Source of the DNA: Squalus acanthias
Taxonomy: Eukaryota
Assembly (NCBI GenBank): GCA_030390025.1
Contig: CM059440.1
Location: forward strand, 67,208,001-67,272,000
Length of the DNA stretch: 64,000 bases
Direction: 5' to 3'
The position numbers and the translations under genes are program-made. Position 1 is the stretch's first letter; every line of letters starts with the position of its first letter. Positions 1,024 to 43,088 of the stretch are shown here, piece after piece. The notes under the pieces are model-generated. The model searched no databases. It saw nothing but the letters and a program-made list of their open reading frames with translations, and was not told where the DNA came from.

Positions 1024-1377
1024 CTGGATTTGAAGTCCGAATGGTTACTGGACCAGTGGCAGCTATCAGTGACCAAATTGTTGTGCTAGGATGCAGTTTC
1101 ACTGTGACTGGAGAGCCACCTGAGAAGAATATCGTTGTCACCTGGCAGCTCGTCGACACTGAAGAGGTTGTCCACAGTTATTATTATGGCGAAGACCAGC
1201 TCAGCAAGCAGAATCCTCAATATTCAGGCAGAACAAGTCTATTCCCAGAGGAGTTTAAAAATGGAAATGCTTCACTGAAATTAAAAGGAGTAAGACCAAA
1301 CGACGCTGGACTATACCAGTGTTATGTCAGTAATACAGTTGGAAATGATAAAGGAACAGTTTCTGTCAGAATTGCAG
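1024..1377 (+). CDS. B7-family (CD276/VTCN1/HHLA2-like) gene copy A, IgV exon
   Basis: Acceptor ttacag|; reads FEVRMV...VVLGCSF...VTWQ...VHSYYYGEDQLSKQNPQYSGRTSLF...GNASLKLKGVRPNDAGLYQC, the typical B7/BTN V-set motifs; phase-1 donor G|GTAAAT. Confidence 0.92.
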
Positions 1378-2950
1378 GTAAATATACTGAACGTATTTCT
1401 CTTTTCTTAGTTGCCCATCTTACCTGACTCACGCTACAGTATTGTTGCCTCGAATACATCCTCTCTCTTTATTCATAGTGAATGGGTAACAGGTCATGTA
1501 CTGTAAACTTCTTCCCATTAAGTGTTAATAAGCACAGTGCAGAACAGAGCTAATATAGCCCATTATGTAATCGAGAGGAAATGGAACATTTCTCAAATTG
1601 CCTGGGATAAAAGTTGGAGTCCCAGAGGAAAGAAAATGTTGGGAACTGCATTTTTAACACATTTACACTTTTCGTTAGGTTACAAGTTTTTCAATCCATG
1701 TCCAGTGCCACCTCACTGGGAGAACCTCTCTCACCAGTGACAGATCGCTTCTGCCACCTCACCTGCAGCTGCCATCTATTCCAGCCTATGGAGGGAGTCA
1801 TTGGAGAGCCTGGGTGCAAGAGGTCACCTTTGTGCAGTGATTGTCAGTGTTTTCAGCCCCTCAATGCTGTCAAACACTGAGAAATCAACTGTCAAAATAA
1901 AATAGTGCATGGTCCCTTTAAGGAAACCGACAGATGACGCATCATTAAATGATGTCAGCAGACCCGCTTCCTATTAATTGGCTGGCAAGCCCGCAGGGCG
2001 GGCTTAACAAGGTCAATCAAGGCAAAATCACGTCCGTGGCCCAGATGCAGCTGGGGGCGGGACTGGAAGCCGGAAACCACCTGACCCGCAGCCAACCCGC
2101 CTCCATTGATAAAATCGCGGCCTTAGTTTTATGATGCCTCAAAATAGCACTGGAGGATGATTTACCTGGACCCCCTCTCTCAGGTTCGAGCTCCGTTTGA
2201 ATATGGTCCGGTCACAGCCCTAGTACTCCTTGCAGGGCCCTAATGTCAGGAAATGTCAGTTGGAGTACAGCAGCCAGAATGGTAGAAGAGCTGGGGGGGG
2301 CTCATGGTTTAAAAAAAAACTTTCAGCTACCTTTCAGTTTCTCTTTGCTTTGCTGCCCGGTCCCCTCAGACCCACCGACCCGAGTGGGTGCCTAACACAA
2401 GGCCCACCATCAGCTTCTTGGGGTACCTCTACATCTGGGCACCCCTGGGCTGCAGAGGAAAATCTATCAGGCAGGAGACCGGGAATGCCCCTCCCACCTC
2501 ATTTAAGTGAGCACATTGTGCAGGTCCTACTCCACCCCTTGGAGCAAGCACTGGCAATCCCAGGACAGTTTAAAGGAGGTGGGTGCCTGGCATAACTGGT
2601 TTTTGCCCCTGTTATGACATTTGTGCCCAGAGAATAGGCGTTCCCTGGGGTAAAGGCCAAGATAATCTGCCTATGATGTAATGAGATTGCGATCAAATCA
2701 TTTTTTCATCTTCTGAGGATGCTCAACCTGTGCAGAACTCGAACGTCAAGTACGCACTTGACCTCTAACTCTTCTGTGCTGCACTCCTTGTACTCAAAAC
2801 AAATAAGTGACTGGTAACCAAGAACTTTATAATCATTATATTAGGCCGTGCATTGTTCTGCAATATAGCTCAAGCATATACCAAAGGTATATGGCACTGT
2901 ATCATTTATTACTGAAGAGGCAAGACTGAAAGATTGTTTTAATTTCACAG

Positions 2951-3238
2951 CATACTACAATGAGCCAGTGCTGTTGATCAAACAGAAACTGTCCAGCACC
3001 ATTTTAACATTTGAGTCCCGAGGCTTTCCTAAGGCTGATGTTTCTTGGTACAACGGAGACAATCTACATGATTCCCTTTTGTCCAAATGTTTATACCAGC
3101 AAACTGCTGATGGTCTGTACATAGTCGAAAGCACTATGGAAATCATTGTCACAGAAAGAAGTTCAAACTATACATTCGTGTTAAGAAATGCTGCTGTCAA
3201 TCAAACTATCTCGAGGACACTTAGTTTTCTTATTGCAG
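2951..3238 (+). CDS. B7-family gene copy A, IgC-like exon (canonical Cys replaced by Phe)
   Basis: Acceptor ttcacag|; AYYNEP...LTFESRGFPKADVSW...GLYIVES...NYTFVLRN; donor G|GTAAGA; phase 1 at both ends. Confidence 0.88.
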
Positions 3239-3865
3239 GTAAGATTTTGCTTGTTCTTCTCACCAATTTTCTTCCTCTCCTTCTCGCTTGAAGGTACCAG
3301 GCCACTCTCACACTCAGGTGGGTTATTATTTATGTGGGAACATTAATAGTGGGTTTTACCAGGCGGATCATCAATGGTGCATCAGAGCTGCACCTGATCC
3401 TATCCTCACCTTCTGTCCACAAAGGTGCAGTTTCAGAATGGGTCACTGATAACCCTAGGGCATTAAGACCAATTGTCACATCCATACTGCTGTCCCAGCT
3501 GTTATCAGCTAACTCAGCATATATTGAAGGTGGGACTGCATGACTCAGCTACTCACTGGAGAGACTCACTGAGCCACTGGAGGAGTTAGACTTTTCATTT
3601 TAATAATAATAACTGAGTCATCTATTTATTATTTTAGAAAATGAATCTTTACAAAACAAATTCAATTCACACAATTTTCATCGCTAGTACATTTAAGTTG
3701 AGTATTCAGTAATTTGCTCATCACTTTAGTCGCTTCTACCCACCAGGAAGCCGCAGTAGCATCTGAATAGAACCTCCTTGTGATTTTTTTGAGCTGCTTC
3801 TATTTTTATGATTCTTTTTATTCAAGGAATAAAAGGTTTTTTTCCTCTTTTTTTTCTACTTCCAG

Positions 3866-4044
3866 AGAATTCAATCGGGAAGAAAGACCGTTCCTGCAGT
3901 TATTATGCAGCCCTCATCAGTTGCATTCTGGGGACTATACTCATAATAATAATAATAATAATAATAGCACTAACTGTGATGTTACATAAACACAGGTATA
4001 TTAAACCAAAGAAAATGGAATACAATAATCCAGGTCTACCATGA
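3866..4044 (+). CDS. B7-family gene copy A, transmembrane plus short cytoplasmic exon
   Basis: Polypyrimidine tract and ttccag|; ENSIGKKDRSCSYYAALISCILGTIL(I)8ALTVMLHKHRYIKPKKMEYNNPGLP*. The four exons total 879 nt (292 aa). AATAAA at ~4593. Confidence 0.82.
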
Positions 4045-5309
4045 GATCACTCTGGATTCCAAAATATCCTGATGGTTGTAACCAATTCTCTGCTGGACCT
4101 GTATGGTGTTTGGAGTTACAAATGGATATGTTATGAATGCTGTTTGTTCCAAATAATGAGCCTGAATGGTCGGAATATCGATGAGTGATCCGCATGTAAT
4201 AGCAACAAGGAATCCATGGGTATTCGTACTGAGTGATCCACATGTAATGGCTATGAAGGATCCTGTATTCAGTCTGAGTGATCCACAAGAACTTGAACTG
4301 ATAAGGAGGTGTTTGTAATAATCAGTGAGAGAGATTATCTAACTGGTCACTCGACAGAGCTCTCTGTAACTACGGGAGAATAAGAGGAAGAGGAGTGTTA
4401 GATGACTGGTTGTGTTCTAAACCTACTAAAAACTGTTCAACTGAAAAAAATGCTGTAATAGCAGATCGATGATTTCTAGATGCTGACTGTGTTGTATGTT
4501 CGCGAATGTTTCCTTGCACCCTGAGTGTGAGTCTAATCTGTTTTCTATAGTCACCCCTACTCTGTATGTTTCACTGCTATGTTTAATTCAGAAATAAATA
4601 TATGTCAATCAAATTATGTATGACTCTGGTTTGGCATTTAATGTTCCACCATTCTAGAGTGAATTGAGGCTGTAGAATATCACTGGGCTCAACAATGCTG
4701 GCCCACTACTGCATTGTTGGAAGCACTACCCTCAGGCACCATGTGTACCTGTCCACACTCAGCTGCTCTCATTCAATAATGCTCATTGAATATATTTTCT
4801 GGCACTCCCAGTACATCAATCATGATGCTCAAGGACTGCCAAGAAAATGGATCTGGCGTATTGTGGGGAAGGTGTGAGGGGGGGAGTGGTGGTGGTGGAA
4901 GGAACAATCAGGGACATTTTTTATTTTTTGATGGGACCTCCTCTTCAGTGCCTGTATCAGCATGCACCGATGCTCCCATCACAGCTCTCCCAATCTCAGG
5001 CCATGGCTTAACATCCCATTCCTTGCCAGCTGCAAGCTCTTCCCCTCCCATCGCAGATGAGGTCATTTCTGTGGCTATATGGAGATTTGGAGCCCCAGGT
5101 CAGACTCTAGGACACTATGGGAGGTGAAGGAAAGAGGAGAAAGTGATAGACATGAAGATAGAAAGAGAGAGTGCGAGACATAAGAACAGAAATAAAATGT
5201 ACACAGAGTGAGGGACATAGAGGAAAAATAGGATACTGAGGGGAGGAGACACAGAGGAGAAGGAAAGGGTGAAGAACAATAGATACAAAAACAAGGACTG
5301 AAAGTTCAT

Positions 5310-9040: not shown

Positions 9041-9905
9041 ACTCACCACAACTCCCTTGCTCTCACCATAGCCACAATGTCAATTACCAACAAGGCCATC
9101 TCTGACCATTTACTTGTCTCACTGCCCTCAGCCACAATACTTTGTGGATTCTCCCCTATATTCATCAACCCACTTAACTACCTTTCTGTGGTGACCTGCT
9201 TGCTGGCCTTGTCAATTGCTCCTTTCCTGAGGCATTGCTTCCTCCCCCTCTTCAGCTATTGCTCCATCTCTGACCTCCCCTTTCTCTCTAAGCTCATCAA
9301 CTGTGTCATTGCCACCATCTCCATGCTCACTTTTTCTTAACACTCCATATTTTCTTCCCTTCAGTTTGTATTCCATCCCAACACAGGATGGAGACCACAC
9401 TGGTCAAAATCACCAACATTATCTTTCCTTGACCTCGCCACAGTTTTCAACACAGTTGATCACACCATATTTCTCTACCGCCTCCTCTCCATGGACAACG
9501 TCTGTGGCATTTACTTTACATAGTTCTATTCCAACCTATCCCGACATAGGCAGCATATCTCTTGCAATGCTGCTCCCTCTGCTCCACCATCAGTTGCAAA
9601 GCCCTCAGTCATCAGTCCTGGCTATGCATATGCAGTTATATTTCTGTTGTTCTTATGCAGTAGAATAAAGCAGAATGTCTACATAAATGTCAGTAAAAAC
9701 CACCTCTTTCGTTAAGTTTTGGCTGCTCTGGAGAATGGGCAGCAACATTGCAAAGAAAACCTCCCTGCCGTCAGGAATGATGCAAACTGCTGGCTAAATT
9801 TTAACACTGGCACAATGGAAGCATATGGTGAGATAACTACTCAAGCAGCTTTTATACTCTGCAACAAGTGCCTGTCCTGAAGAGGCGAGCTGCAACCAAA
9901 GACAA

Positions 9906-12900
9906 TGTGGTAACACAATACAGCTTCCTGTGACTCGAACTTTATTGCATCACTTCCTGTGATTAGTCCAGGATAAATACGGGACTGATCAGTTGGATCC
10001 TGGAGAGGCATAGAGTAAGACCTCTTTTGTATGTAGCAGCTTTTTAGTTGATTAAAGCTTACTTTAAGTTCACCACGCGTAAGGCTCATTCTTACGACAA
10101 TTTAATCAACTTTGAAAAACTTCGCACTCAAACTTTTTGGACGAACTCGGAACTAAGGATCCAGGGAATCACCCATCATGGAAAACATCCTTAAACCATC
10201 GCGTCTTGACTTGGACCCAAACACCCCAGCAGCCGGTAAGGTGTGGAATCACTGGTCTCGCACGTTTGACAATTTTCTCGAATATTGCAAGGCTGATGAT
10301 GACACAAAGTTGCGGATACTCATCAACTGTGTCACTCCGAATGTATTTCAGTATGTTGAGGAATGGGGCAGTTACGAGGAGGCAATTCGGACGCTTAAAA
10401 GACTATATACTAAGACACCGAATGAGGTCTATGCCAGACATCTACTAGCTACAGCCCAACAAGGGCCGGAGGAATCCATTGATAAATTCCTCCAAGAGCT
10501 TCGCAGACTTAGTATGGACTGTAACTTTCAGGCGGCCTCAGCTGAGCTGTACCGTGAAGAAATGATCCGTGATGCTTTCATCTGCGGGCTTGCCTCCCCA
10601 TTTATACGCCAGCGTCTACTGGAAAGTAAGACACTTGAGCTTCAGAGAGCTTATGACATGGCTTGCTCTCTAGATCTGGCAAAAAGAAATGCAGACCTTT
10701 ATACAGTGCCCAGACCTCGGTCTGCTGCCTTAACTACAGTCAGGCAATTTAAGAGGCCACAGGTGAACTCTATTAGGGAGGACTTTATCCCTGACGATCA
10801 ATCTGATGACTTCACTGATGAAGAGGATGATGACCCCACTGTGGCAGCCTCTTGGCAATCTAAGAAATGCTTCTTTTGTGGTGATGAGTTTCACCCTCGG
10901 AAATTCTGCCCTGCTCGCAATGCGTTTTGCAGTCATTGCAACAAAAAGGGTCATTTTGCAAAGGTTTGCCTATCAAGAGCCTCTACGAGGGCTTATCAAG
11001 CTAAGTCCTACCGAACTGCCCCGGTAAGGGCCTATCAAGATGTTCCGGCTAAAATCTATCGTGCTTCCTCTCGGGTTTTCTCTCGAAGAAACACACCTAG
11101 AGTTTCAGCCACTCTTTGTGCAACGACACCAATTACAGCTGCTTGTCCTCAGAACCTATTCCATGCAGCTACAAAAGCATCAATTAATGGACATACTTTA
11201 GATGCCTTAATTGACTCAGGTAGCACTGATAGTTTCATTAGGGAACAGATTGTTGCAGAGTTAAAGCTACATGTTTTCCCATCGGACCAGGCAATTGCGA
11301 TGGCTCAGTCATCACTTAATACCAGAATTTCTGGCTTTTGTATGGTTGAAATAACACTTAATGGTCACAGGTATCCCTCCACCCGGCTTTCGGTGCTCAA
11401 GGACTTATGTAGTGATCTTATCTTAGGACTGGATTTTCAAAAGCAGCATAAGAAGCTCACCATTGAGTTCGGCGGATCCAAACCTGAACTCACTATTTCT
11501 AATATACGACCTCGATTACCGTTCTGTGCATTGTCAGCAGCTTCACTGGATGAACCCTCACTGTTTACCAGTATCCCTCCTCGATGCAAACCGATTATAA
11601 CAAAGTCACGACGTTTCAGTCAGGAAGACCAGTCTTTTATTGCGGCTGAGATTTCTCGGCTTTTAGCAGAGGATATCATCGAGCCTTGTTCGTCGCCATG
11701 GCGCGCCCAGGTCGTTATTGTTAAGAACCCTCTACAACCTCACAAGAAACGGCTGTGCATTGACTATTCACAGACCATCAATCAATATACGGACTTGGAC
11801 GCATACCCATTGCTGCGCATCGATGATATGGTTAATAAACTGGCTGAGTACACGGTGTTCTCAACATATGATCTGAAAAGTGCCTATCATCAGGTACCCT
11901 TGAAGGTCTCAGACAAGCAGTATACGGCCTTTGAAGCCAATGGACGGCTGTATCAATTTCGTCGCCTCCCCTTTGGGGTCACTAATGGAGTGGCTGTCTT
12001 CCAGCGAGCAATGGATGACCTGGTCAAACAGGAAGACTTGAAGGATACGTTTCCTTATCTGGACAATATTACTGTCGCAGGTCGCAATCAGCGGGAACAT
12101 GACGCCAATCTCCAACGATTTTGGGATGCACTCCAGCACCGTAATTTGACATTAAATGCGGCTAAATCCATTGAGTCACAACCAACCATCAACATCCTTG
12201 GCTATTGTGTGGGCAATGGCATCATTAAACCTGACCCTGAAAGGCTTCGCCCACTCCAAGAGCTCCCGCCACCTAAGAATCCGGCCTCCTTGCGCCGGGC
12301 CCTCGGCCTGTTTGCATACTATGCTAAATGGATTCCTAACTTCTCGGACCGAATCCAACCTCTACTGAAGGCCAGCACATTCCCACTAGACACAGCGGCT
12401 GTTGCAGCCTTTAACCTCCTGAAAAAACAGTTGGAGAAAGCGGCTCTTCACTCCATCGATGAGAGTCTTCCTTTTGTTGTTGAGTGTGATGCCTCGGAGG
12501 TGGCGATCTCGGCCACTCTGAATCAGGAAGGTCGTCCGGTGGCATTTTTGTCCAGGACTTTTCAAGGGGCTGAGCTACATTATCCTCCAGTCGAGAAAGA
12601 AGCTACAGCCATCATAGAGGCAGTACGGAAGTGGACTCATCTCCTAGCTCGCCAGCACTTTACCTTAATCACGGACCAGCGATCGGTCGCCTTCATGCTC
12701 GATAATCGAAAACGGACCAAAATTAAAAATAATAAAATCCAGCTTTGGCGGCTGGAATTGGCCTCTTTTGGTTACACCATCCACTATCGACCTGGCAAGG
12801 AGAATGTGGCTCCAGATACCCTCACACGAGCATTCTGCTCCGCCATGGCACCCTCTACGCTCGTAGACATCCATGATGGGTTGTGTCATCCGGGCGTTAC

Positions 12901-14346
12901 TCGCATGCTACACTTCGTGCGGTCCCGAAATCTCCCATTCTCTACCGGGGATGTAAAGAAGATGTGCTCGGACTGCAGAGTCTGTGCGGAATTGAAACCT
13001 CAGTTTTTCCGCCCCTCGGGTGGTATACTCATACATGCGACCCAGCCAATGCAACGGCTTAGCATCGATTTTAAGGGGCCGTTGCCCTCTTCAACTCGCA
13101 ACACTTATCTATTGACCATGGTCGATGAGTATTCCCGTTTTCCGTTTGCCTTTCCCTGCCCCAATATGCTGACGACCACGGTTATCAGCTGCCTTGAGCA
13201 GGTATTTGCTTTCTGTGGCATGGCATCCTATGTTCATTCGGATCGGGGCCCTTCTTTTATGTCAGGAGAACTCAAGGCCTATCTCTCGGAACGGGGTATT
13301 GCTGCCAGCAGAACGACGCCTTATCATCCGGTCGGGAATGGGCAAGTCGAGCGTTTTAACGCTATCATCTGGAATGCGGTACGTCTGGCTTTGAGATCTC
13401 GGGGCCTACCCAACCAGCAATGGGAAGCAGTACTTCCAGATGCATTACACTCCACACGGTCCCTCCTTTCGACCGCCACAAATACGACGCCTCATGAACG
13501 GTTCTTCCGATTTCAGCATCGCTCATCCTATGGGATATCTCTCCCGTCGTGGCTGACTGCACCGGGACCAGTGCTACTCCGAAGATATGTCCGGGCGTCT
13601 AAGAATGACCCCCTGGTAGATGAGGTTGAGCTCACTGACGTCAACCCTACCTACGCCTATATTCGGTATCCTGACGGTCGGGAATCTACTGTGTCATTGC
13701 GGGATCTGGCTCCCTGCCCGCCGAAACATAGAGGGACACCAGGGGATGATATTGTACCAGGCACATCTCTGGGCTCGCCAGGTGCCTCTCATCACGATCT
13801 GGATCTGACGCCGGCTGGTACCTCACTCCAGCGTGCCGACCTGGGGCAGACTGACTATGAGCCCGTCGGGGCTCGCACGCGCAGCCACGATCCACCCCGT
13901 ACCATACGCTCGGAAACGGATCTGCCACAGCCCTGCCCGACACCCGTTCGGGCACCAGTACACAGTCAGGATCGTCCTGACCCCTCACAGAGCGGGCTGG
14001 ATCACTCGGACTCTGGTCCACGGCCCGCGGCGGGTAAACGGGCTAGGGGCCCTCTACCGCTACGAGAACCCAAACGGGTGCGGCTCTCCCTCGTCCGGCG
14101 GCTACGAAATGGAGGGAGCATCCCGGCCTCCTAATCTTTTGGGGGGGGAGAATGTGGTAACACAATACAGCTTCCTGTGACTCGAACTTTATTGCATCAC
14201 TTCCTGTGATTAGTCCAGGATAAATACGGGACTGATCAGTTGGATCCTGGAGAGGCATAGAGTAAGACCTCTTTTGTATGTAGCAGCTTTTTAGTTGATT
14301 AAAGCTTACTTTAAGTTCACCACGCGTAAGGCTCATTCTTACGACA
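9906..14346 (+). mobile_element. Intact Ty3/gypsy (Mag-like) LTR retrotransposon
   Basis: 194-bp TG..CA LTRs at 9906-10099 and 14153-14346, identical by eye; 5-bp TSD GACAA (9901-9905, 14347-14351); PPT GGGGGGGGAGAA at 14141-14152. Confidence 0.97.
10178..14134 (+). CDS. Gag-Pol polyprotein (Gag with two Zn knuckles, PR, RT, RNase H, IN), 1318 aa
   Basis: CFFCGDEFHPRKFC and CSHCNKKGHFAKVC; LIDSGS; DLKSAYHQ, LPFG, YLDN; ECDAS; integrase HHCC plus D-D-E (IDFKGP, HSDRG, VERFN). Confidence 0.96.
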   Translation: MENILKPSRLDLDPNTPAAGKVWNHWSRTFDNFLEYCKADDDTKLRILINCVTPNVFQYVEEWGSYEEAIRTLKRLYTKTPNEVYARHLLATAQQGPEESIDKFLQELRRLSMDCNFQAASAELYREEMIRDAFICGLASPFIRQRLLESKTLELQRAYDMACSLDLAKRNADLYTVPRPRSAALTTVRQFKRPQVNSIREDFIPDDQSDDFTDEEDDDPTVAASWQSKKCFFCGDEFHPRKFCPARNAFCSHCNKKGHFAKVCLSRASTRAYQAKSYRTAPVRAYQDVPAKIYRASSRVFSRRNTPRVSATLCATTPITAACPQNLFHAATKASINGHTLDALIDSGSTDSFIREQIVAELKLHVFPSDQAIAMAQSSLNTRISGFCMVEITLNGHRYPSTRLSVLKDLCSDLILGLDFQKQHKKLTIEFGGSKPELTISNIRPRLPFCALSAASLDEPSLFTSIPPRCKPIITKSRRFSQEDQSFIAAEISRLLAEDIIEPCSSPWRAQVVIVKNPLQPHKKRLCIDYSQTINQYTDLDAYPLLRIDDMVNKLAEYTVFSTYDLKSAYHQVPLKVSDKQYTAFEANGRLYQFRRLPFGVTNGVAVFQRAMDDLVKQEDLKDTFPYLDNITVAGRNQREHDANLQRFWDALQHRNLTLNAAKSIESQPTINILGYCVGNGIIKPDPERLRPLQELPPPKNPASLRRALGLFAYYAKWIPNFSDRIQPLLKASTFPLDTAAVAAFNLLKKQLEKAALHSIDESLPFVVECDASEVAISATLNQEGRPVAFLSRTFQGAELHYPPVEKEATAIIEAVRKWTHLLARQHFTLITDQRSVAFMLDNRKRTKIKNNKIQLWRLELASFGYTIHYRPGKENVAPDTLTRAFCSAMAPSTLVDIHDGLCHPGVTRMLHFVRSRNLPFSTGDVKKMCSDCRVCAELKPQFFRPSGGILIHATQPMQRLSIDFKGPLPSSTRNTYLLTMVDEYSRFPFAFPCPNMLTTTVISCLEQVFAFCGMASYVHSDRGPSFMSGELKAYLSERGIAASRTTPYHPVGNGQVERFNAIIWNAVRLALRSRGLPNQQWEAVLPDALHSTRSLLSTATNTTPHERFFRFQHRSSYGISLPSWLTAPGPVLLRRYVRASKNDPLVDEVELTDVNPTYAYIRYPDGRESTVSLRDLAPCPPKHRGTPGDDIVPGTSLGSPGASHHDLDLTPAGTSLQRADLGQTDYEPVGARTRSHDPPRTIRSETDLPQPCPTPVRAPVHSQDRPDPSQSGLDHSDSGPRPAAGKRARGPLPLREPKRVRLSLVRRLRNGGSIPAS

Positions 14347-14576
14347 GACAACCTGCCAGAATTTGCTACGACCAATGGTAGGGTTTAGACCTGTTTTTTT
14401 ACAGGGTCTTCCTGGACATAGTGAATGTATCAGCTTTATCTTTGGGTTCCAGCCAGCTGCTTAAGACGCGTTCATATGAACAGGATTCGTATGGTATAAA
14501 GGCAAATGCCTTGCAGGAGTCCCGTGCTAAAGTTCGGTTTGGGGCCATTATATTTACTAGACAATGATACTACATA

Positions 14577-16919
14577 CAGGAAACTCTCGTTTAAACGGCA
14601 CCTAAATATCCGGAATTCTCTAATAACTGGCAAAATTCATACTCCGAAAACAACACCTCAATAACCGGAAATGTTGCCGAGTCCGAGTCCAAGTCTCCCG
14701 CAGTGGCCGAGTTAGTCAGTGGGGGTAGTTCTTCAAAGTGCCACTACTCTGCTTCCTGGCGCTGTCGGAAGTCCGAACACCTCAATAACAGGAGTCTGAC
14801 TCTCCCGTGCTGCCGGTAGTCTCTTCCGATCTGCCATTTTTCTGTGTGTCTCTCCATCTTTATCATGAATTATCTCCCCCATCTTGCATTATGGAATTCC
14901 CAAAAGTTGGTCAAAGCAAAAGGAAGAGAGTGGTGTTAACTTTAAAACAGAAAATCAAGATATTTCAAAGACTAGAAAGGGGGGAGAAGCGTATCAACAT
15001 TATGAATGAATTCAAAATCGGTTCGGCAACAATCTACGACATCAAACCACAGAAGGATAAGCTGCTCAAGTTTTATTCAAGCTCGGAGACATCTAAGAGT
15101 GTAGAGAAACGGCGTACGCTTCGTAAGCCTAAGCTTGAAGAGCTGGATACCGTGCTTTATGAGTGGTTTTCTCTTAAGCGTTCAGCGGGTGTTCCACTTT
15201 CCGGACCCATGCTAATCGAGAAAGCGAAGGATTTCTACGAAAGGATGGAGCTCACTGACAAGTGTGCTTTCTCCGATGGATGGCTAACGTGCTTCAAGTT
15301 ACGGCACGGGATACGACGACTCGATATTTCCGGGGAGAAGAAATCAGCTGATCACGACGCCGCAGAAGAATACTGCGATTATTTCAATCGGATTGTGCAG
15401 CAACATGATTTGTCGCCAGCACAGATATATAATGCCGATGAAACTGGCTTGTTTTGGAGGTTTTTTCCAGAATCAACGCTTGCTGGGGCTAGTGAGGCTA
15501 ATGCTTCAGGTTACAAGAAAAATAAAGATCGTGTAACCGTGCTAACATGTGCGAACGCTGCTGGATCACACCGGGTTAAACTTCTTGTTATTGGGAAGTA
15601 TAAAAATCCCCGTGCATTTAAAAATGTGAGGCACTTACCTGTTGAGTACAAAGATCAAAAAAATGCTTGGATGCATAAGGAAATCTTTTTGTATTGGTTC
15701 CATCATATTTTTGTTCCATCTGTGAGGGAACATTTCTGTAAAATAGGGAAACCTGAAGATAGCAAATGCATTTTATTGCTTGATAATTGTAGAGCCCATC
15801 CGCATGAATCCGAGTTGGTTTCGGGAAATATTTTCACCATTTATTTGCCACCAAATGTAACTTCTCTCATACAACCCATGGACCAGGGCATTATCCAAAA
15901 TCTCAAGTGTCATTACAAGAAAGACTTCCTACGCAAACTGATAAACCAAGATGACAATATTCACGCATTTCAGAAGGAATACAATCTTAAAGATGCCATC
16001 TTTAGTGTTGCATGTTCCTGGAACTTGGTGAAAGGTCACACTTTGAGACAAGCCTGGCGCAAATTGTGGCCTTCTGTAATGTTTACTGAAGGTTCTTCTT
16101 CAGAGGAGGAATTTCATGTGTTCAATGTTCGTCCCAAGAAGAGTACAATAATGGAAATGGCTGGCATGGTGAAAAATGTAGGCCCAGCAAACCCTCTACG
16201 TCACCTCAGTGAAAGTGATATTGAGCAGTGGGTTGATGCAGATAGAGAAGTTGGTGTTGTGCATATGCTAAGTGATGATGAAATAATTGAGACTGTTTTG
16301 AATCCAGAGAAAGAAAAGGAAAGTGAGATGGAAAGTGAAGAGGATGAGATTTCTGAAGAGAAGAAGATTTCTTGGGCTAAAGCTGCAGAAGGATTTGCTT
16401 CAATCCTCCAATTTGCTGAAAGGCAGCCTTGCTACTCTGCCCAAGAAGTTATGCAACTCCATATTTTGCATTCCACCTTTCTACAGAAAAGGCAAGAGTC
16501 CACTAAGCAAGCAGACATCCGGGACACGTTTAAGAAAGCTTCCAAAAGAGTCGAAGCAGTGGAAGTGACTGAAGAATCTATTGAAGTGCATGATCCTGAT
16601 GAACCAGTTGACTTGGAATAAGTGTACAGTCAACTACAGTACTGTATACAGTCGATTATAAGTTTTGTTTTACTGTTAAGTAATTAAAGAGTTATGGATT
16701 ACCCTCAACTGGCATTACTGTACTTAATCAAGCATCTTCCACCATCCATTTAACACAACATTCTGTCGGGGAGTACCCAATTATACTGCACATTTCTTGA
16801 TTTTTTTATTTTTGTTTGTTAAAAATAGCCTCGGTAGATATACCTCTCCGTTATCCGGAATTTTTAATCAACCGGCACCATCCCGGTCCCGTCGGTGCCG
16901 GATACGAAAGAGTTTCCTG
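14577..16919 (+). mobile_element. Full-length Tigger/pogo (Tc1-mariner superfamily) DNA transposon
   Basis: TIRs CAGGAAACTCT...GGCACC at both ends (imperfect internally); TA duplicated at 14575-76 and 16920-21. Confidence 0.95.
14891..16621 (+). CDS. Tigger/Jerky-like transposase (CENP-B-type HTH plus DDE_1), 576 aa
   Basis: ATG at 14891; [12 protein letters not shown]; WF...SGPMLIEKA; catalytic motifs [29 protein letters not shown]; uninterrupted ORF. Confidence 0.93.
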
Positions 16920-27912: not shown

Positions 27913-30518
27913 GAAAGTTGTAAATAATTTTCAAGGAACTAGATGTGAAGTTCTGCATTTGCTTTTTGCTCCTCTTCAATATTTATACAGAATTACACTT
28001 AGGGATCTGTTCATATTGTTAGCTTTTTAACTGGCAGCTTTAAAATCAGTTTCTTTCATTTACAACCAAACAATCCAGGAAGTGGATGGTCCAGTGGGTT
28101 AGCACAGGGTGTGAATTATGGCTCATGGAGTGTGTGGAACCCCAATTACTGAGTCACAGAGCCCCGTCGCCACAACAGACGGGTCAAGCTTTACATTCAA
28201 CAGCTTATGGTCAAGCAGGAAGTTTCACCACAATTGTAGGAAAAAGGATACAGACACAAGTTTTAAATAATATAAAATCAGGATTCCTGCAGGCACGCAG
28301 GTCCCTTTAATATGCTTCTTACTTTAAGAGAGGCCTTTTTCATCTCCCTCCAAGACAAAGCTGGCAATCGTATAAACAGGCACCGTGGTTAAAATTAGAG
28401 GCACCGTCAGGCGAGGAACAGAACGTAGATGAGAAATAGGAGTGAGCCAAGGATAGATCGTTGAGGGACACCAGAGGGAACGGTGATTCTCTGGCTAGGA
28501 CTGGATCGATAATAATGGAAATACAAAAGCAAATTACTGCAGATGCTGGAAATCTGAAATAAAAACAGAAAATGCTGGAAATACTCAGCAGGTCAGGCAG
28601 CATCTGTGGAGAGAGAAACAGCGTTAACGTTTCAGGTCGATGATCCTTCGTCAGAACTGGGATAGATAATAATGGAACCAGGCGACCAATGTTCCACGCA
28701 AGGTGCGCGGCCGTGCAGCGATCTGTAAGGTCCCGCGCAGTCAAAGACACAGGCTGTGAGCTGGAGAGCTGGAGCTAGGGGAGGGGCCCAATACCCAACG
28801 GCCAAAGCGCGAGCAGGAAAAAGTCAGAGATGAGAGAATGTCCCGGGAATCCTCACAGGGAGAGTCGTTTGTGACCTTACAAAGCCGATCCGAATTGGAA
28901 CGGCGTTTGCTAAGATCTGGAGCCCTGGAACCCTTCGAGCGTTGTCTCGGGATTCTGTCGGTACTTTTTCGTGGAGACGCGTGTCGTCGTTTCCTGGGGA
29001 TTGAGCGGGGGCGGCACTTTGGAACAACACACCGCGGGAGCCAGTTATTAATCGGAACAAGTTGAGGAAAAAGCTTCCGCGGTAACCAGGGCGACAGGTG
29101 TCATTTCACCAAACCGCTCCGAGACCTCAATGTGTGCGGCTGGCAGGAAAGTGAATGCAGTTTTATTTTTATTATCTTACATTTGGAATATATTTTTGAG
29201 GTTAACTTTTTGGAAGAAAAAAAAATGATCACATATTTAACGCCCGTATATTTATTTAATGTAAATGTTTATTTTTGAGTAAACAAACGTTAACGTCCCA
29301 AAGGCGTTTTATTTAAAACGTCACTCGGGTTTTAAAGCCTTAAAAATGTCCAACGTTTTTGAAACTGAAGCCAAGAGGAAGACGACGACGTGTTGCAGCT
29401 TTGCGATAGGTGCACTATTGACAAACGGATCGCCCCTCGATATTTCAGAACTTTCCTGATCTCTAGATAGTGAGTGTCTTGGTGAGCCTCTTCAGGCAAA
29501 CTGTTTCTTAATGCTTCATGTTTCAATTCACGCGGTGTAATGCAGACAAAGGTGAGCTGTGGATGTGTAACCCAAGAAGACGGTCCTGAAATGGAAATGT
29601 TCCGCTTTTTAATCTTAAATTAGGCCGCAGTTCTACAAGCGCTTTTGCTCCTGTGGAAAGTGGTTTTTGGTGCACTTCAATGAAAAAGTGGTGGTATAAC
29701 CTAAGAGAGATAATTGAAGGTACTAAAGGCGTGAGTAATGAGTCTGGTACGGGTTTATGTTCGCACTGAGTGCACATTAACTCCAGCTTTAGTTTCTCAC
29801 CACCTCCCAACAAATGTTGGAAACAAAGTTATTGCTAATGTCTGATGTAATAATAAGAAAACTTAACAGAACAAGTCATTTGGTTCATCAAGTGTTTGCC
29901 TTCCACCAACAATATCCAGTCTATTTGTTTTTGGGATGAGATGTTAAATCTGCTCCTGTGGTTCAGATGGACTAATAACGGACAGCTAGCACAGATTTGT
30001 TAAAGGCAAATCGTGTCTGACTAACCTGATTGAGTTCTTTGATGAAGTACCAGCGAGGGTTGATGAAGGTAGTGTCGTAGATGTATATATGGACTTTAAA
30101 AAGACATTTGATGAAGTACCACATAACAGACTTATTGGGAAAATAGAAGCAAATGGTATTAAAAGGACAGTGGTAACTTGGGTGCATAATTGGCTACGGG
30201 ATAGGACGCAGAGAGTAGTGGTGAACGGATGTTTTTCTGACTGGAGAGAAGTATGCAGTGGGGTCCCCCAGGGGTTGGTATTGGGACCATTGCTTTACTT
30301 GTTACATATAAATTACCGACACAGACCTCAAGTATCTACAGAGATGCAAGAAAGCAGACAAGATCCCGAAAGGATTACAGATCACGAACCCACTCAAGTC
30401 GACATACAACACAGACTACGCTGAGAGACTCTGCCGTCATACCTCTCGCACACTCCTCAACCATCTCGTAGACCAGCTCTACAGCAAACGCCGCAACCTC
30501 GAAACCAAGATAGAGTCC

Positions 30519-32927
30519 ATGCTCTCAGCCTATGCTCAGGACACAGCAGACCAGCTACGAGACACCGCCAAACAGACGAGGCAACGGAACTACGCTGCCT
30601 ACATGCGCATCAAGAACAGGAAGCTTGAGAAACTCGGCATCACCACCAGCAGCAACCAAGCCTCCCCCGGTACCACGGTTGCAACCACAGGGAAGTCCAT
30701 CGTCAACTTGTCCGACCACACCCTTCAACCAGACGAAATCGAAGTTCTCAACCGAGGGCTCATTTTCTGCCCCACCACCAAAATGGACCCCATCGGTCTC
30801 GCGGCAGACACAGAGGAATTCATCAGGAGAATGAGGATCCGGGAATTCTTCCACGAATCCCAAGATGTCAGCAGCGAACCCAATGAGACAATCAATGATC
30901 CGGAACAGCAGACAGAGGGACTCGCAGTGCAGCAACCAAAGAAGAAAGAGTCAAATTGGACCCCTCCGGAGGGTCGTTGCCCTAAGCTTGACATGTATGC
31001 TCAAGCTGTCAGGAGATGCATCAATGCCAGATTCATCAGCCGCACTCACAAGACAGTCCAGAATGTCACCCGAGCACAACGCAACGCCATCCACGCTCTC
31101 AAGACCAACCGCAACATCGTCATCAAACCAGCGGACAAAGGAGGAGCCATCATCATACAGAACAGAATGGACTATTGCAAAGAAGCATACCGACAACTGG
31201 ACAACCTGGAACACTACAGACAGTTACCCGCAGATCCGACCAAAGAACACACCCGCCAACTCAATAGACTGATCAAGACCTTCGATCCAGACCTTCAAAG
31301 CATCCTACGCGCTCTCATCCCACGTACTCCCCGCGTGGGAGACTTCTACTGCCTCCCAAAGATACACAAAGCCAACACACCCGGACGTCCTATCGTATCA
31401 GGCAACGGAACCCTGTGTGAGAACCTCTCTGGATACGTCGAGGGCATCCTGAAACCCATCGTACAGGGAACCCGCAGCTTCTGTCACGACACCACAGACT
31501 TCTTACAGAAACTCAGCACCCATGGACCAGTTGAACCAGGAACACTCCTCGCCACGATGGACGTATCGGCACTCTACAACAGTATCCCCCACGATGACGG
31601 CATCGCTGCGACAGCCTCAGTACTCAACACCAACAACAGCCAATCTCCAGACGCCATCCTACAACTCATTCACTTCATCCTTGACCACAATGTCTTCACC
31701 TTCGACAACCAGTTTTTTATCCAAACACACGGAACAGCCATGGGGGCCAAATTCGCACCCCAATACGCCAACATCTTCATGCACAAGTTCGAGCAAGACT
31801 TCTTCGCTGCACAGGACCTCCAACCAACGCTGTACACCAGATACATCTACGACATTTTCTTCCTTTGGACCCAAAGCAAAGGATCACTGAAAAGACTATA
31901 CGATAACATCAACAAGTTCCATCCCACCATCAAACTCACCATGGACTACTCCTCAGAATCGGTTTCATTCTTGGACACACGAATCTCCATCAAAGACGGA
32001 CACCTCAGCACTTCACTCTACCGCAAGCCCACGGACAACCTCACGATGCTCCACTTCTCCAGCTTCCACCCTAACCACGTTAAAGAAGCCATCCCCTATG
32101 GACAAGCCCTGCGAATACACAGGATCTGCTCAGACGAGGAGGAACGCGATGGACACCTACGGACGCTGAAAGACGCCCTCGTAAGAACAGGATATGACGC
32201 TCGACTCATCGATCGACAGTTCCGACGGGCCACAGCGAAAAATCGCATAGACCTCCTCAGAAGACAAACACGGGACACAACCAACAGGGTACCCTACGTC
32301 GTCCAGTACTTCCCCGGAGCAGAGAAACTACGCCATGTTCTTCGCAGCCTTCAACATGTCATCGATGACAACGAACACCTCGCTAAGGCCATCCCCACGC
32401 CTCCACTACTCGCCTTCAAACAGCCGCCTAACCTCAAAAGTACCATCGTTCGCAGCAAATTACCCAGCTTTCAGGAGAACAGCGACCACGACACCACACA
32501 ACCCTGCCACGGCAACCTCTGCAAGACATGCCAGATCATCAACACAGATACCATCATCACACGTGAGGACACTACCCACCAGGTATATGGTACACACTCA
32601 TGTGACTCGGCCAACGTTGTCTACCTCATATGTTGCAGGAAAGGATGCACCGGAGCATGGTACATCAGCGAGACCATGCAGACACTGAGACAACGTATGA
32701 ACGGACACCGCGCAACAATCGCCAGGCAGGATTGTTACCTCCCAGTCGGGGAACACTTCAGCAGTCAAGGACATTCGGCCTCGGATCTGCGGGTAAGCGT
32801 TCTCCAAGGCGGCCTTCGAGACACACGACAACGCAAAATCGTCGAGCAGAAACTGATAGCCAAGTTCCGCACCCATGAGGACGGCCTCAACCGGGATCTT
32901 GGGTTCATGTCACGCTACATGACGTAG
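30519..32927 (+). CDS. Penelope RT-GIY-YIG endonuclease ORF (probably inactive)
   Basis: IKPADKGG, LPKIHK, RPIVS, MDVSALY, GTAMG; catalytic YIDD reads YIYD; GIY-YIG reads VVYLI...WYISET...R.R..H. Confidence 0.9.
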   Translation: MLSAYAQDTADQLRDTAKQTRQRNYAAYMRIKNRKLEKLGITTSSNQASPGTTVATTGKSIVNLSDHTLQPDEIEVLNRGLIFCPTTKMDPIGLAADTEEFIRRMRIREFFHESQDVSSEPNETINDPEQQTEGLAVQQPKKKESNWTPPEGRCPKLDMYAQAVRRCINARFISRTHKTVQNVTRAQRNAIHALKTNRNIVIKPADKGGAIIIQNRMDYCKEAYRQLDNLEHYRQLPADPTKEHTRQLNRLIKTFDPDLQSILRALIPRTPRVGDFYCLPKIHKANTPGRPIVSGNGTLCENLSGYVEGILKPIVQGTRSFCHDTTDFLQKLSTHGPVEPGTLLATMDVSALYNSIPHDDGIAATASVLNTNNSQSPDAILQLIHFILDHNVFTFDNQFFIQTHGTAMGAKFAPQYANIFMHKFEQDFFAAQDLQPTLYTRYIYDIFFLWTQSKGSLKRLYDNINKFHPTIKLTMDYSSESVSFLDTRISIKDGHLSTSLYRKPTDNLTMLHFSSFHPNHVKEAIPYGQALRIHRICSDEEERDGHLRTLKDALVRTGYDARLIDRQFRRATAKNRIDLLRRQTRDTTNRVPYVVQYFPGAEKLRHVLRSLQHVIDDNEHLAKAIPTPPLLAFKQPPNLKSTIVRSKLPSFQENSDHDTTQPCHGNLCKTCQIINTDTIITREDTTHQVYGTHSCDSANVVYLICCRKGCTGAWYISETMQTLRQRMNGHRATIARQDCYLPVGEHFSSQGHSASDLRVSVLQGGLRDTRQRKIVEQKLIAKFRTHEDGLNRDLGFMSRYMT

Positions 32928-33265: not shown

Positions 33266-33432
33266 TTTCAAATAAAACTTTTGGACTATAACCTGGTGTT
33301 GTGTGACTTCTCAGTTTGTCCATCCCAGTCCAACACCGGCATCTCCGCATCATAAATTACCTGGACTTGGGAACAGGGAGTACAATTTTGAAGTTTGCGG
33401 ATGATACAAAACCTGGCAATGTGGTAAATAGT

Positions 33433-34712
33433 GAGCGAAGAGGTAGAATGGGATGTGTGAGGAGAGGTAGAATGGGATGTGAGGAGAGGTAGAATGGGAT
33501 GTGTGAGGAGAGGTAGAATGGGATGTGTGAGGAGAGGTAGAATGGGATGTGTGAGGAGAGGTAGAATGGGATGTGAGGAGAGGTAGAATGGGATGTGTGA
33601 GGAGAGGTAGAATGGGATGTGTGAGGAGAGGTAGAATGGGATGTGTGAGGAGAGGTAGAATGGGATGTGAGGAGAGGTAGAATGGGATGTGAGGAGAGGT
33701 AGAATGGGATGTGAGGAGAGGTAGAATGGGATGTGAGGAGAGGTAGAATGGGATGTGAGGAGAGGTAGAATGGGATGTGTGAGGAGAGGTAGAATGGGAT
33801 GTGTGAGGAGAGGTAGAATGGGATGTGTGAGGAGAGGTAGAATGGGATGTGAGGAGAGGTAGAATGGGACGTGTGAGGAGAGGTAGAATGGGATGTGAGA
33901 GGAGAGGTAGAATGGGATGTGAGAGGAGAGGTAGAATGGGATGTGAGGAGAGGTAGAATGGGATGTGAGAGGAGAGGTAGAATGGGATGTGAGGAGAGGT
34001 AGAATGGGACGTGTGAGGAGAGGTAGAATGGGATGTGTGAGGAGAGGTAGAATGGGATGTGAGGAGAGGTAGAATGGGATGTGAGGAGAGGTAGAATGGG
34101 ATGTGAGAGGAGAGGTAGAATGGGATGTGAGGAGAGGTGGAATGGGATGTGTGAGGAGAGGTAGAATGGGATGTGAGGAGAGGTAGAATGGGATGAGAGA
34201 GGAGAGGTAGAATGGGATGTGTGAGGAGAGGTAGAATGGGATGTGAGGAGAGGTAGAATGGGATGTGAGGAGAGGTAGAATGGGATGTGAGGAGAGGTAG
34301 AATGGGATGTGAGGAGAGGTAGAATGGGATGTGTGAGGAGAGGTAGAATGGGATGTGAGGAGAGGTAGAATGGGACGTGTGAGGAGAGGTAGAATGGGAC
34401 GTGTGAGGAGAGGTAGAATGGGCTGTGAGAGGAGAGGTAGAATGGGACGTGTGAGGAGAGGTAGAATGGGCTGTGAGAGGAGAGGTAGAATGGGACGTGT
34501 GAGGAGAGGTAGAATGGGACGTGTGAGGAGAGGTAGAATGGGATGAGAGGAGAGGTAGAATGGGATGTGTGAGGAGAGGTAGAATGGGATGAGAGGAGAG
34601 GTAGAATGGGATGTGTGAGGAGAGGTAGAATGGGATGTGAGGAGAGGTAGAATGGGATGTGTGAGGAGAGGTAGAATGGGATGTGTGAGGAGAGGTGGAA
34701 TGGGATGTGAGA
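33433..34712. repeat. Purine-rich minisatellite, 22/24-bp unit GAGGAGAGGTAGAATGGGATGT(GT), about 55 copies
   Basis: Directly visible tandem array. Confidence 0.97.
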
Positions 34713-35329
34713 GAGCAATGTTCCCCCTAAGCTGCGCATCAATCGCTGTATCTGCAGCAAGCAACAACTCAGGAATATTGTCGTCTGGGAAAATGAGGCA
34801 AAACAAACTTCAAGCTTCAGTCGGTGGATTGCAGGCCAGTAACGCAGAGATCATTCCAGTACAGTGCGAAAGGCCAAACCTTGCACCACTCTGCACATTA
34901 TGCTTGTTTTATAACTACAGATATGGTTTATTCAGCGGGGTAAGGGCTACATACCATGTAACTGTTCGGACTTACTGTTCATTCAAAATAACTTGCATTT
35001 ATACATAGCCAGTAACGTGGAAAAACGCCCCAAGGTGCTTCACAGAGGCGTGATCAGATGCAAATGCACACAGAGCCAAAGAAGGAGATATTAGGATTGG
35101 GTGATCAAAGGCTTGGTCAAAGAGGTGGTTTTTCAGTCGGTTTTAAAGGAGAAAAAAGAGGTAGACCCAAGGTGATTAAGCTTGGCTTCTGTAGGTGTTG
35201 GACTTCAATGTGAATCATAGCGCATAATGCCCACAATGTGTACTGAAGCGAGGTTCCTGCTCACCAAACCTCCAGACCTTGACATAATGGCCATCTTGAT
35301 GGTTTAACTGCTAACCAATTTAACCTGAT

Positions 35330-39107: not shown

Positions 39108-39140
<33 letters not shown>

Positions 39141-39218
39141 GCACTAACTGTGATGTTACATAAACACAGGTATATTAAACCAAAGAAAATGGAATACAAT
39201 AATCCAGGTCCACCATGA
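36686..39218 (+). pseudogene. Partial duplicate of B7-like paralog B (IgV 3' part 36686-36943, IgC 38117-38404, TM 39031-39218)
   Basis: Begins mid-IgV, fused to the Penelope fragment; shares the TAC>TAG stop (36880-82) with the copy at 54461. Confidence 0.92.
37739..37877 (-). mobile_element. Short CR1-type 3' tail inserted after the duplication
   Basis: (catagaa)n tail; absent at the homologous sites ~2708 and ~55609. Confidence 0.85.
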
Positions 39219-39351
39219 GATCACCATGGATTCCAAAATATCCTGATGGTTGTAACCAATTCTCTGCTGGACTTGTATGGTGTTTGGAGTTACAAATGGA
39301 TGTGGTATGAATGCTCTTTGTTCCAATTAATGAGTCTGAATGGTCGGCACG

Positions 39352-40322
39352 TCGCACTTATTGACACTTCCATCTTGTCTGACACCTTCAATCTCAATGT
39401 CTCCTTCGGTTCCTTCTAGACCTCGCTCTAGTACTCAAATCTTAATACATGGGAAATTAAGTATAGCTTAGCATTAGCTTATGAGGCAAATAGCTTGGTG
39501 TTTAAATTAGTGTTTCCTTACAGCTAGAACAGTCATTAGCTTCAAGGTCTCCATTAACTGTTGAATAAAGAAAGTTTATAGGAAGCTAAAAACAAAGATA
39601 AGGGAACCTAAGCCTTGTCTCTGTTACAGCTAGAATAGTCATTAGTTCCAAGGTCTCTATTAACTGTTGAATAAAGAAAGTTGGTAGGAATCTAAAAACA
39701 AAGATAACCAAAGTTTCTGTCTAATTGGGATAGAGATAGGCACAATAGTGTACCATCATAATAATCCATTGTAAGGTTTTACGCCTCAAACATAATGATT
39801 CGGATGTGACTCCATATTGGCAACGGTACGTTTTATTGGTATACAGTCGAAATCAATACAACCGGCAAAGACTAATGTTAACTGATAGTAATTTACAGTT
39901 CCGAAGGATATTACCAAATTCGGTCACTGGAAAGTGTAGCGTGCGATGTCTCCGTTGTATCTTTAATCCGGTCCGGCAGTTGTCTTACAAGCAGAGAAGA
40001 GCATTAGGCTTTCGCCAGTATGGACCGCTCATTAATACCAGCGTACCAGAGAGACGTTAAGCCCTTTTGGCTAGCATAAATCCATCTCTACAGGTACCGT
40101 CGTCCTCCTCTCTATATCTGTACATCTCAGGTCAAACAGTCACCTTTTATCCTTCAAAGTTCTGATCATTTGATTAACAAAGTCCAATCGTGTCTGTCCA
40201 CGCCAGGTTCGCTTAACGAGCAAGTCGCACTTATTGACACTTCTATCTTGTCTGATACCTTCATTCTCAATGTCTCCTTCGGTTCCTTCTAGACCTCGCT
40301 CTAGTACTCAAATCTTAATACA
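39352..40322. mobile_element. LTR-like element with a 98-bp terminal direct repeat (39352-39449 = 40225-40322); duplicate at ~57082-58053
   Basis: TG..CA segment 39450-40322 with an internal ~105-bp tandem repeat; homology to the copy A 3' UTR ends abruptly at ~39347. Confidence 0.55.
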
Positions 40323-42991: not shown

Positions 42992-43088
42992 CCCTGGACC
43001 CAAGACCCCTCTATACAATCCTACTGAAGTAAGATATTAAAAAATTGGACATAACAAGGGCAAGACGGGCATGACTCATTTGCAGAAA

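What the first reader, a model, noticed from the sequence alone, without database searches (positions are those of the whole stretch)
10046..10111. Intact gypsy element has no tRNA PBS; its PBS is an 11-nt perfect complement of its own LTR (candidate self-priming)
Seen: after the 5' LTR comes A-TTTAATCAACT (10101-10111), not TGG. It is the exact reverse complement of AGTTGATTAAA at 10046-10056 inside the LTR, in the geometry needed to prime minus-strand synthesis into U5. Established: S. pombe Tf1 and Tf1/sushi-group elements self-prime with ~11 nt from their own transcript 5' end. This element looks Mag-like (double Zn knuckle, no chromodomain), not Tf1/sushi. The putative primer overlaps the ATTAAA polyA signal and lies ~75 nt downstream of the best TATA-like box (GATAAATA, ~9972). 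Inference: independently evolved self-priming, possibly using an internally excised primer.
Basis: partly seen in the sequence, partly recalled or inferred. Interest (0 to 1): 0.8.

Follow-up and report, generated by a model that had tools for sequence, protein, structure and literature searches.

The report
Self-priming animal Gypsy retrotransposon lineage
This young jumping gene has, where a tRNA primer normally docks, a perfect match to a piece of its own end-repeat, and distant animal relatives change both halves together, so the whole group likely starts copying itself with its own RNA, a trick proven so far in a yeast element.

Summary
Observation confirmed. A young 4,441-bp Ty3/gypsy element (identical 194-bp LTRs, GACAA target duplication, one 1,318-aa ORF) has no TGG primer site. 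Bases 10101-10111 are the exact complement of LTR bases 10046-10056 (22 of 100,000 random LTRs reach this). The genome holds 3,190 exact junctions of this kind in three families. Among metagenome relatives, 20 of 26 testable loci carry a 10-18-nt own-LTR complement starting just after the LTR; 17 chosen loci show 11 different cores. One family changed both LTRs and the primer site together. Best reading: Tf1-like self-priming, with one cut after ...TAAA giving the 3'-OH; no second excision is needed. Caveats: start site, cut and priming are untested. A host tRNA-Ile D-loop fragment pairs this element's site almost as well (-10.1 vs -11.0 kcal/mol) but fails in 6 of 13 loci. Poly(A)-signal overlap holds in only 10 of 17. 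'Mag-like' could not be tested; Cigr-1 is a recalled lead. No chromodomain or Tf1 pretzel was found. This scan reported the same clade before on other DNA; my searches found no paper describing it.

The parts
9901..9905 (+). left target-site duplication GACAA
9906..10099 (+). 5' LTR, 194 bp, TG...CA, identical to the 3' LTR
9972..9979 (+). TATA-like box GATAAATA (function inferred; sister families B and C have TATAAATA in the first half of their LTRs, but the alignment does not superimpose it on this box)
10046..10056 (+). predicted self-primer AGTTGATTAAA; its last six bases are the only A(A/T)TAAA hexamer of this LTR
10056..10057 (+). predicted cut site TAAA|GC (TAAA ends the paired arm in 15 of 17 loci; RC follows in 16 of 17)
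   Evidence: the cut itself is inferred
10057..10100 (+). 44-nt loop that would template minus-strand strong-stop DNA; two small predicted hairpins; one unpaired A after the terminal CA
10101..10111 (+). primer-binding site TTTAATCAACT, no TGG
10178..14134 (+). single gag-pol ORF, 1,318 aa: protease, RT, RNase H, integrase; no chromodomain or env-like domain found
10868..10969 (+). two CX2CX4HX4C zinc knuckles
12056..12067 (+). RT motif reads YLDN where Ty3 has YLDD
14141..14152 (+). polypurine tract GGGGGGGGAGAA
14153..14346 (+). 3' LTR; its copy of the motif (14293-14303) has no primer site downstream and would be free to act as poly(A) signal
14347..14351 (+). right target-site duplication GACAA

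Best explanation
This is a young Ty3/gypsy retrotransposon whose primer-binding site is the exact complement of an 11-base piece of its own LTR, and it likely starts reverse transcription from that piece of its own RNA instead of a tRNA. Shown: the complementarity, its start one base after the LTR end, and its matched change across relatives. Inferred: the transcript starts in the 5' LTR upstream of 10046 (probably near 10000, about 30 nt after the TATA-like box); 10046-10056 pairs with 10101-10111; a single cut after ...TAAA (by the element's RNase H, by analogy with Tf1) frees a 3'-OH; RT copies the 44-nt loop; this DNA jumps to the 3' end of the RNA using the roughly 15-25 nt between the poly(A) signal and the poly(A) site. 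In families where the primer ends in A(A/T)TAAA, the same duplex would hide the 5' poly(A) signal while the 3' copy stays free.
For: Chance control 22/100,000. 30 of 30 fetched family-A loci, the window's own included, keep both halves; 47 of 47 family-B rows keep a 13-nt pair; 3,190 exact junctions in the genome against 0 in the reversed control. Unbiased scan: 20 of 26 metagenome loci with enough upstream DNA have a perfect 10-18-nt inverted repeat whose 3' arm starts 1-4 nt after the LTR-end dinucleotide; 17 of these 20 beat all 100 shuffles. 11 different 10-nt cores in 17 loci. Primer sites match LTRs with a different core at only 3-9 nt, against 11-17 nt for the own 5' LTR in 14 of 16 loci. 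L031 carries G>T in both LTRs and the matching C>A in the primer site relative to L040 of the same family. Subfamily A2 differs at 12 LTR positions plus one inserted A but not inside 10046-10056, and the extra A extends the pair to 12 nt. Control: two own-genome gypsy loci of another lineage have a TGG site and only 4 nt of self-complement. RNase H acidic residues are invariant in 56 of 56 aligned proteins.
Against: No transcription start, cleavage or priming data. 6 of 26 loci fail the 10-nt threshold: L075 has a perfect 16-nt match only in its 3' LTR, L100 and L101 (one family) have one mismatch, and L091, L092 and L096 are unexplained. A 5' fragment of host tRNA-Ile(AAT) pairs the window's site over 11 nt with two G-U pairs at -10.1 against -11.0 kcal/mol, and reaches -10 or better in 7 of 13 loci. 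The Tf1 three-duplex 'pretzel' is not seen (leader vs loop 142/500 shuffles as good; U5 end vs loop 25/500). The one compensated double change in the own genome (L194/L248) is absent from the 3' LTR of that copy, so it is not a replicated variant. The 17 loci are not independent: several belong to one family or one metagenome. The host tRNA set was sampled only in part.
Confidence: 0.8

Rival explanations
1. A host tRNA fragment is the primer: a 5' piece of tRNA-Ile(AAT) ending after the D-loop pairs with the site through two G-U pairs, and the LTR motif only resembles it.
For: The genome holds the D-arm motif 50 times; ARAGORN of 12 fetched loci tRNA-Ile at default settings. Duplex energy is close to self-pairing for the window element and family C (-10.1/-11.0 and -14.1/-14.7). 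Half-tRNA priming exists in copia lineages (PMC6317226, passages).
Against: The own LTR pairs better in 13 of 13 loci; the tRNA piece falls to -3.3 to -6.0 kcal/mol in L031, L035, L036, L066, L075 and L100. The site is exact to the LTR at the two positions where the tRNA needs wobble, whereas a primer is copied into the site each cycle (established retroviral pathway) and should match exactly. It gives no reason for LTR and site to change together. D-loop dihydrouridines would weaken pairing (own knowledge).
Confidence: 0.07
2. The duplex is mainly a switch that hides the 5'-LTR poly(A) signal (or sets translation or packaging), and priming uses some other, unknown primer.
For: The paired arm ends in ATTAAA or AATAAA in 10 of 17 loci and is the only such hexamer in the window's LTR. 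In the L036/L037 family the pairing runs up to the gag start codon.
Against: 7 of 17 loci have no canonical hexamer in the arm yet keep the pair. The 3' arm starts one base after the terminal CA in 15 of 17, a register that priming needs and occlusion does not. No other primer site is left.
Confidence: 0.08
3. Self-priming exactly as in Tf1: the transcript starts at or next to 10046, so the 11-mer is the capped 5' end and the poly(A) signal lies at the very start of a short R region. This is a sub-case of the best explanation.
For: Perfect pairing stops at 11 nt in the window element, the Tf1 length (PMC7175516, passages); 10044-10049 reads TTAGTT, like an initiator (consensus recalled). Pairing does not extend outward beyond chance (382/500 shuffles as good).
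Against: TATA-like boxes lie 74-92 nt before the arm in families A, B and C, too far for an animal start site at the arm; arm length varies from 10 to 18 nt; the base before the arm is not conserved.
Confidence: 0.25
4. Chance, or a DNA-level inverted repeat without RNA function.
For: The motif is AT-rich and only 11 nt; whole-region folding is not significant.
Against: 22/100,000 control; 11 different cores in the same register.
Confidence: 0.01

Closest known systems
Tf1, Tf2 (Schizosaccharomyces pombe), Tj1, Tosmo and the Tf1/sushi group of chromoviruses
   Same: Ty3/gypsy domain order; no tRNA site; about 11 nt of the element's own LTR complementary to the site just after the 5' LTR (PMC7175516, PMC4600332, bioRxiv 10.1101/2022.12.06.519325; passages).
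   Different: No chromodomain in 21 of 21 proteins scanned; no pretzel; the primer piece probably lies inside R next to its 3' end, often on the poly(A) signal, rather than at the 5' end; conserved TAAA|RC junction; YxDN in the RT; short LTRs and two knuckles.
Cigr-1 clade of Ty3/gypsy (Ciona intestinalis; also reported in molluscs and annelids)
   Same: Recalled, not from a call: about 4.2 kb, LTRs of about 245 bp, one ORF of about 1,200 aa, marine invertebrate hosts. Homologues here are mostly 1,150-1,260 aa when full length, and the named ones come from crustaceans, cnidarians and a tunicate. The clade's presence in molluscs and annelids is in PMC6238403 and PMC8556966 (passages).
   Different: No Cigr-1 sequence was available, so identity is untested; the passages read give no primer mechanism for it.
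Plant Tcn1 (gypsy) and TAR/Houba/Osr-1 (copia) lineages
   Same: Self-priming predicted from the same kind of evidence, 10 nt or more of LTR complement starting 0-5 bp after the LTR (PMC6317226, passages). This shows that self-priming has arisen more than once.
   Different: Plant hosts; Tcn1 is related to Tf1/sushi, TAR is copia; no poly(A)-signal overlap in the passages read.
Mag lineage (A, B, C clades; SURL, Jule)
   Same: Short LTRs, two zinc knuckles (recalled), animal hosts.

Membership tests
Ty3/gypsy superfamily | Order PR-RT-RNase H-IN between LTRs; RT closest to Ty3 | tested here: met
   (best solved relative Ty3 Gag-Pol, E 1.7e-57)
Tf1/sushi group | Primer site complementary to the own LTR, no tRNA site | tested here: met
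Tf1/sushi group | Chromodomain after the integrase | tested here: not met
   no chromo or SH3_Tf2-1 hit in the window protein or in 20 of 20 homologues scanned
Tf1/sushi group | Three-duplex 'pretzel' around the primer helix | tested here: not met
   leader vs loop no better than shuffles; U5 end vs loop marginal (25/500)
Tf1/sushi group | Primer is the 5' end of the transcript | not testable with these tools
   only assembled contigs were available, which cannot show starts
Tf1/sushi group | RT/IN tree places it among chromoviruses | not testable with these tools
Tf1/sushi group | RNase H-dependent cut at the primer's 3' end | not testable with these tools
   catalytic residues are present; the cut needs an experiment
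Mag lineage | Two CCHC knuckles in Gag (feature recalled) | tested here: met
   93 of 121 proteins have two; not exclusive to Mag
Mag lineage | RT/RNase H monophyly with Mag, SURL, Jule | not testable with these tools
   no reference sequences
Cigr-1 clade | About 4.2-kb element with short LTRs and one ORF of about 1,200 aa (recalled) | tested here: met
Cigr-1 clade | RT monophyly with Cigr-1 | not testable with these tools
   no Cigr-1 sequence; an earlier AI note of this scan files the YxDN group there, unchecked
tRNA-primed LTR elements | TGG 0-5 nt after the LTR, complementary to a tRNA 3' end | tested here: not met
Half-tRNA-primed elements | Exact complement to an internal tRNA piece | tested here: inconclusive
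   tRNA-Ile D-loop pairs with two G-U; best exact match 6 nt among 45 tRNA sequences of few isotypes; full tRNA set not obtained

The most novel reading that the evidence does not exclude
A large animal gypsy lineage (crustaceans, cnidarians, tunicates and this 3.7-Gb genome) invented self-priming separately from Tf1/sushi. It uses an internal piece of R that doubles as the poly(A) signal: one helix hides the 5' signal, marks a sequence-specific RNA cut at TAAA|RC and supplies the primer, leaving only about 15-25 nt of R for the first strand transfer, all run by an RT that mostly carries Asn in place of the last catalytic Asp.
Probability: 0.45. Interest if true: 0.75.

Novelty: new variant of a known kind. 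Interest (0 to 1): 0.6.

Why it matters
Self-priming has been shown in Tf1 and inferred for its chromovirus relatives and a few plant lineages. A very abundant, recently active animal lineage without a chromodomain that does the same would show the mechanism arose again, free these elements from tRNA supply and from silencing by tRNA fragments, and explain why tRNA-based annotation finds no primer site. A primer that lies inside R on the poly(A) signal makes a long-standing question testable with short RNAs: how an RT or RNase H recognises and cuts an RNA-RNA duplex, and whether the primer must be the transcript's 5' end.

Tried and rejected
Viral-contig scans found no relatives. No RNA holder listed; the runs offered were contigs of uncertain kind, which gave no start, end or poly(A) site. 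Three gag searches of the own genome were dominated by family B, with 9 older family-C rows. Pattern scans for other cores in the own genome gave 6 and 17 loci; only L194 had a gag hit. Templated repair of the primer site from the primer: at pair 5 there were 3,190 unchanged, 14 primer-only, 22 site-only and 1 compensated junction. About 0.05 compensated doubles are expected by my arithmetic, but that copy's 3' LTR is unchanged and its LTRs are only 94.9% alike, so I do not count it. Of 13 primer-only copies with a 3' LTR in reach, 12 changed in the 5' LTR alone and 1 (L372) in both LTRs: inconclusive. An initiator or a splice acceptor at the primer's 5' edge was considered and dropped as a general rule, because the AG is missing in L039, L045, L067 and L079. 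Pretzel and outward extension were not supported. The tRNA family search sampled mostly Lys and Cys genes. The search for sushi-type elements in the own genome gave only weak hits (best E 3e-5). The protein atlas gave no answer. The primary Tf1 papers I tried were not held, so Tf1 details come from passages of later papers. Mollusc-paper supplements were listed, not read; they may hold clade assignments that bear on the name.

Full report
1. The element. Bases 9906-14346 are a complete LTR retrotransposon: identical 194-bp LTRs (9906-10099, 14153-14346), GACAA duplicated on both sides, and a purine tract at 14141-14152. One 1,318-aa ORF holds two zinc knuckles, protease, RT, RNase H and integrase, with no chromodomain. 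The nearest solved relative is Ty3 Gag-Pol. The host genome is 3.7 Gb; 40 of 170 candidates were scored, all 99-100% identical over 395 bases, so the family is very young.

2. The observation. After the terminal CA comes one A, then TTTAATCAACT (10101-10111), the exact complement of 10046-10056. Random LTRs of the same dinucleotide make-up reach 11 nt in 22 of 100,000 trials, and of about 4,020 internal positions only one reaches 11 nt. Folding predicts the helix, closing a 44-nt loop with two small hairpins, though overall stability is not unusual.

3. Own genome. All 30 fetched family-A loci keep both halves. Gag searches found family B (215-bp LTR, 13-nt pair in 47 of 47 rows, a few of them the same copy fetched twice) and an older family C (11-nt core intact in 5 of 9 rows). 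Their LTRs differ widely from family A but share the motif and the site. The genome has 3,190 exact junctions. At one tested pair there were 14 primer-only, 22 site-only and 1 compensated change. Most primer-only changes are confined to the 5' LTR (12 of 13), so they are decay after insertion; one is in both LTRs. The single compensated copy lacks the change in its 3' LTR and does not count as replicated. Subfamily A2 differs at 12 LTR positions but not in the motif and adds one paired base.

4. Distant relatives. 756 homologues among 7,996 scored candidates; the best 120 are 46-64% identical, and the named ones come from crustaceans, cnidarians and a tunicate. A metagenome scan kept the best 80 of 372 confirmed loci. 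I placed LTR ends first from LTR pairs, then tested the downstream bases: own 5' LTR 11-17 nt in 14 of 16 loci (one end, L037, was set two bases late), LTRs with another core 3-9 nt; families sharing a core cross-match at 11 nt or more. The two misses are decayed copies: L075 matches perfectly over 16 nt in its 3' LTR, and L100 has one different mismatch in each LTR. A scan that assumes no LTR end was run on the 28 of 80 loci with a gag N-terminus, 26 with enough upstream DNA: 20 of 26 have a perfect 10-18-nt inverted repeat starting 1-4 nt after the LTR-end dinucleotide; L091, L092 and L096 show nothing. For the detailed comparisons I chose 17 loci (3 own-genome, 14 metagenome), leaving out duplicates and the failing or decayed loci. 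They hold 11 different 10-nt cores; the arm ends in TAAA in 15, is followed by RC in 16, and the loop (24-68 nt) ends in CAA in 15. L031 shows a matched change in both LTRs and the site within the family of L040, so a compensated variant has been through replication. The loci are not independent samples. An RT tree of 35 rows joins all 28 in-group rows (100/100) against 7 own-genome rows of other lineages; loci with short or missing RT were left out and no named references were included. One outgroup lineage has a TGG site and 4 nt of self-complement.

5. tRNA rival. No tRNA 3' end can bind, as there is no TGG. A 5' piece of tRNA-Ile(AAT) ending after the D-loop does pair over 11 nt with two G-U pairs; the genome has 50 matches to that D-arm motif. 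The energy is -10.1 against -11.0 kcal/mol for self-pairing. The own LTR wins in 13 of 13 loci and the tRNA fails in 6. The rival is weak for the lineage but not excluded for this element; the host tRNA set was only partly sampled. The likeness of the commonest core to a tRNA D-arm may be chance or a trace of origin; that is speculation.

6. Mechanism. By established retroviral logic the site next to the LTR sets where minus-strand synthesis starts, and the fixed one-base offset fits that role. In Tf1 the first 11 bases pair with the site and RNase H cuts after base 11 (PMC7175516, passages). Here the TATA-like boxes lie 74-92 nt upstream, so the piece is probably internal (inferred). Only one cut is needed; the primer could be the whole capped 5' fragment. 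Strong-stop DNA would be 44 nt, and the first jump would rely on the short stretch between the poly(A) signal and the poly(A) site. In 10 of 17 loci the arm ends in A(A/T)TAAA, so pairing could also hide the 5' signal; 7 of 17 lack this, so it is secondary. The Tf1 pretzel (bioRxiv 10.1101/2022.12.06.519325, passages) is not supported. A short stem starting right after the arm is enriched (67 paired bases summed against 50.7; 5 of 2,000 shuffles; related loci inflate this).

7. Comparison and novelty. It works like Tf1 but fails two Tf1/sushi features tested here, so I do not file it there. Self-priming has also been predicted for plant Tcn1 and TAR lineages (PMC6317226, passages), so the mechanism is known and has arisen more than once. 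The clade name is open: Mag is untested, Cigr-1 is a recalled lead. Four searches on self-priming and two on Cigr listed no paper reporting it for a non-chromovirus animal gypsy lineage. I saw search listings and passages only (also PMC3601003, PMC4600332, PMC5341516, PMC5006619, PMC6934838, PMC6238403, PMC8556966, PMC8220671, PMC3670739); subscription journals and Repbase were not covered. Earlier AI notes of this scan report the same clade on other DNA, two in this genome; they are not counted as evidence.

8. Side finding. The RT motif reads YLDN; 92 of 110 scorable proteins have YxDN and 18 YxDD, 11 were not scored. In Ty1 this exchange cuts the polymerase rate 223-fold and stops transposition, partly rescued by RNase H changes (PMC2148107, abstract). 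A link to self-priming is untested.

Verdict: real, lineage-wide feature; self-priming 0.8; new variant of a known kind; interest 0.6.

Noticed in passing
window 12056-12067; P0001-P0121: RT motif is YLDN, not YLDD; YxDN in 92 of 110 scorable proteins, although the family is very young and abundant. No paper holds 'YLDN' with 'reverse transcriptase' in the library; the scan noted it before.
   Followed up: partly
G000:C1:566513, 570760, 575007 (L385, L386): Tandem copies of family A spaced 4,247 bp, the element length minus one LTR, i.e. an array sharing LTRs.
   Followed up: partly
L356-L367; window 10046-10058: The commonest primer core plus the next two bases differs from the host tRNA-Ile D-arm at only two positions, both A for G.
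   Followed up: partly
L226-L247: 17 of 22 site-only changes at pair 5 are C>T, which would leave a G-U pair; may only reflect the mutation spectrum.
   Followed up: no
window 14912-16621 (+): Tigger/Jerky-type transposase ORF, 569 aa (CENP-B_N, HTH_Tnp_Tc5, DDE_1), starting 0.57 kb after the element.
   Followed up: no
window 30312-32927 (+): 871-aa open frame with a weak RT hit (E 5e-7) and no other Pfam domain.
   Followed up: no
window about 36700-46000 and 54500-64000, part also at 1100-4300: Long near-identical duplication with 17.7-kb spacing, partly present in a third copy; arrays of 22-24-nt units at about 33300-34800 and 26-nt units near 43000 and 60800.
   Followed up: no
L320:195-9813, L329: Another own-genome gypsy lineage, about 9.6 kb with LTRs of about 710 bp and a TGG primer site; used as control.
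   Followed up: partly
L036, L037, L090, L102: In this family the LTR-site pairing can reach 17-19 nt and runs up to the gag start codon.
   Followed up: no
G000:C3:160139419-160139488 (L198), C2:115898203, C18:45891156: Inverted-repeat stretches that matched the junction pattern but have no gag nearby; probably other repeats.
   Followed up: partly
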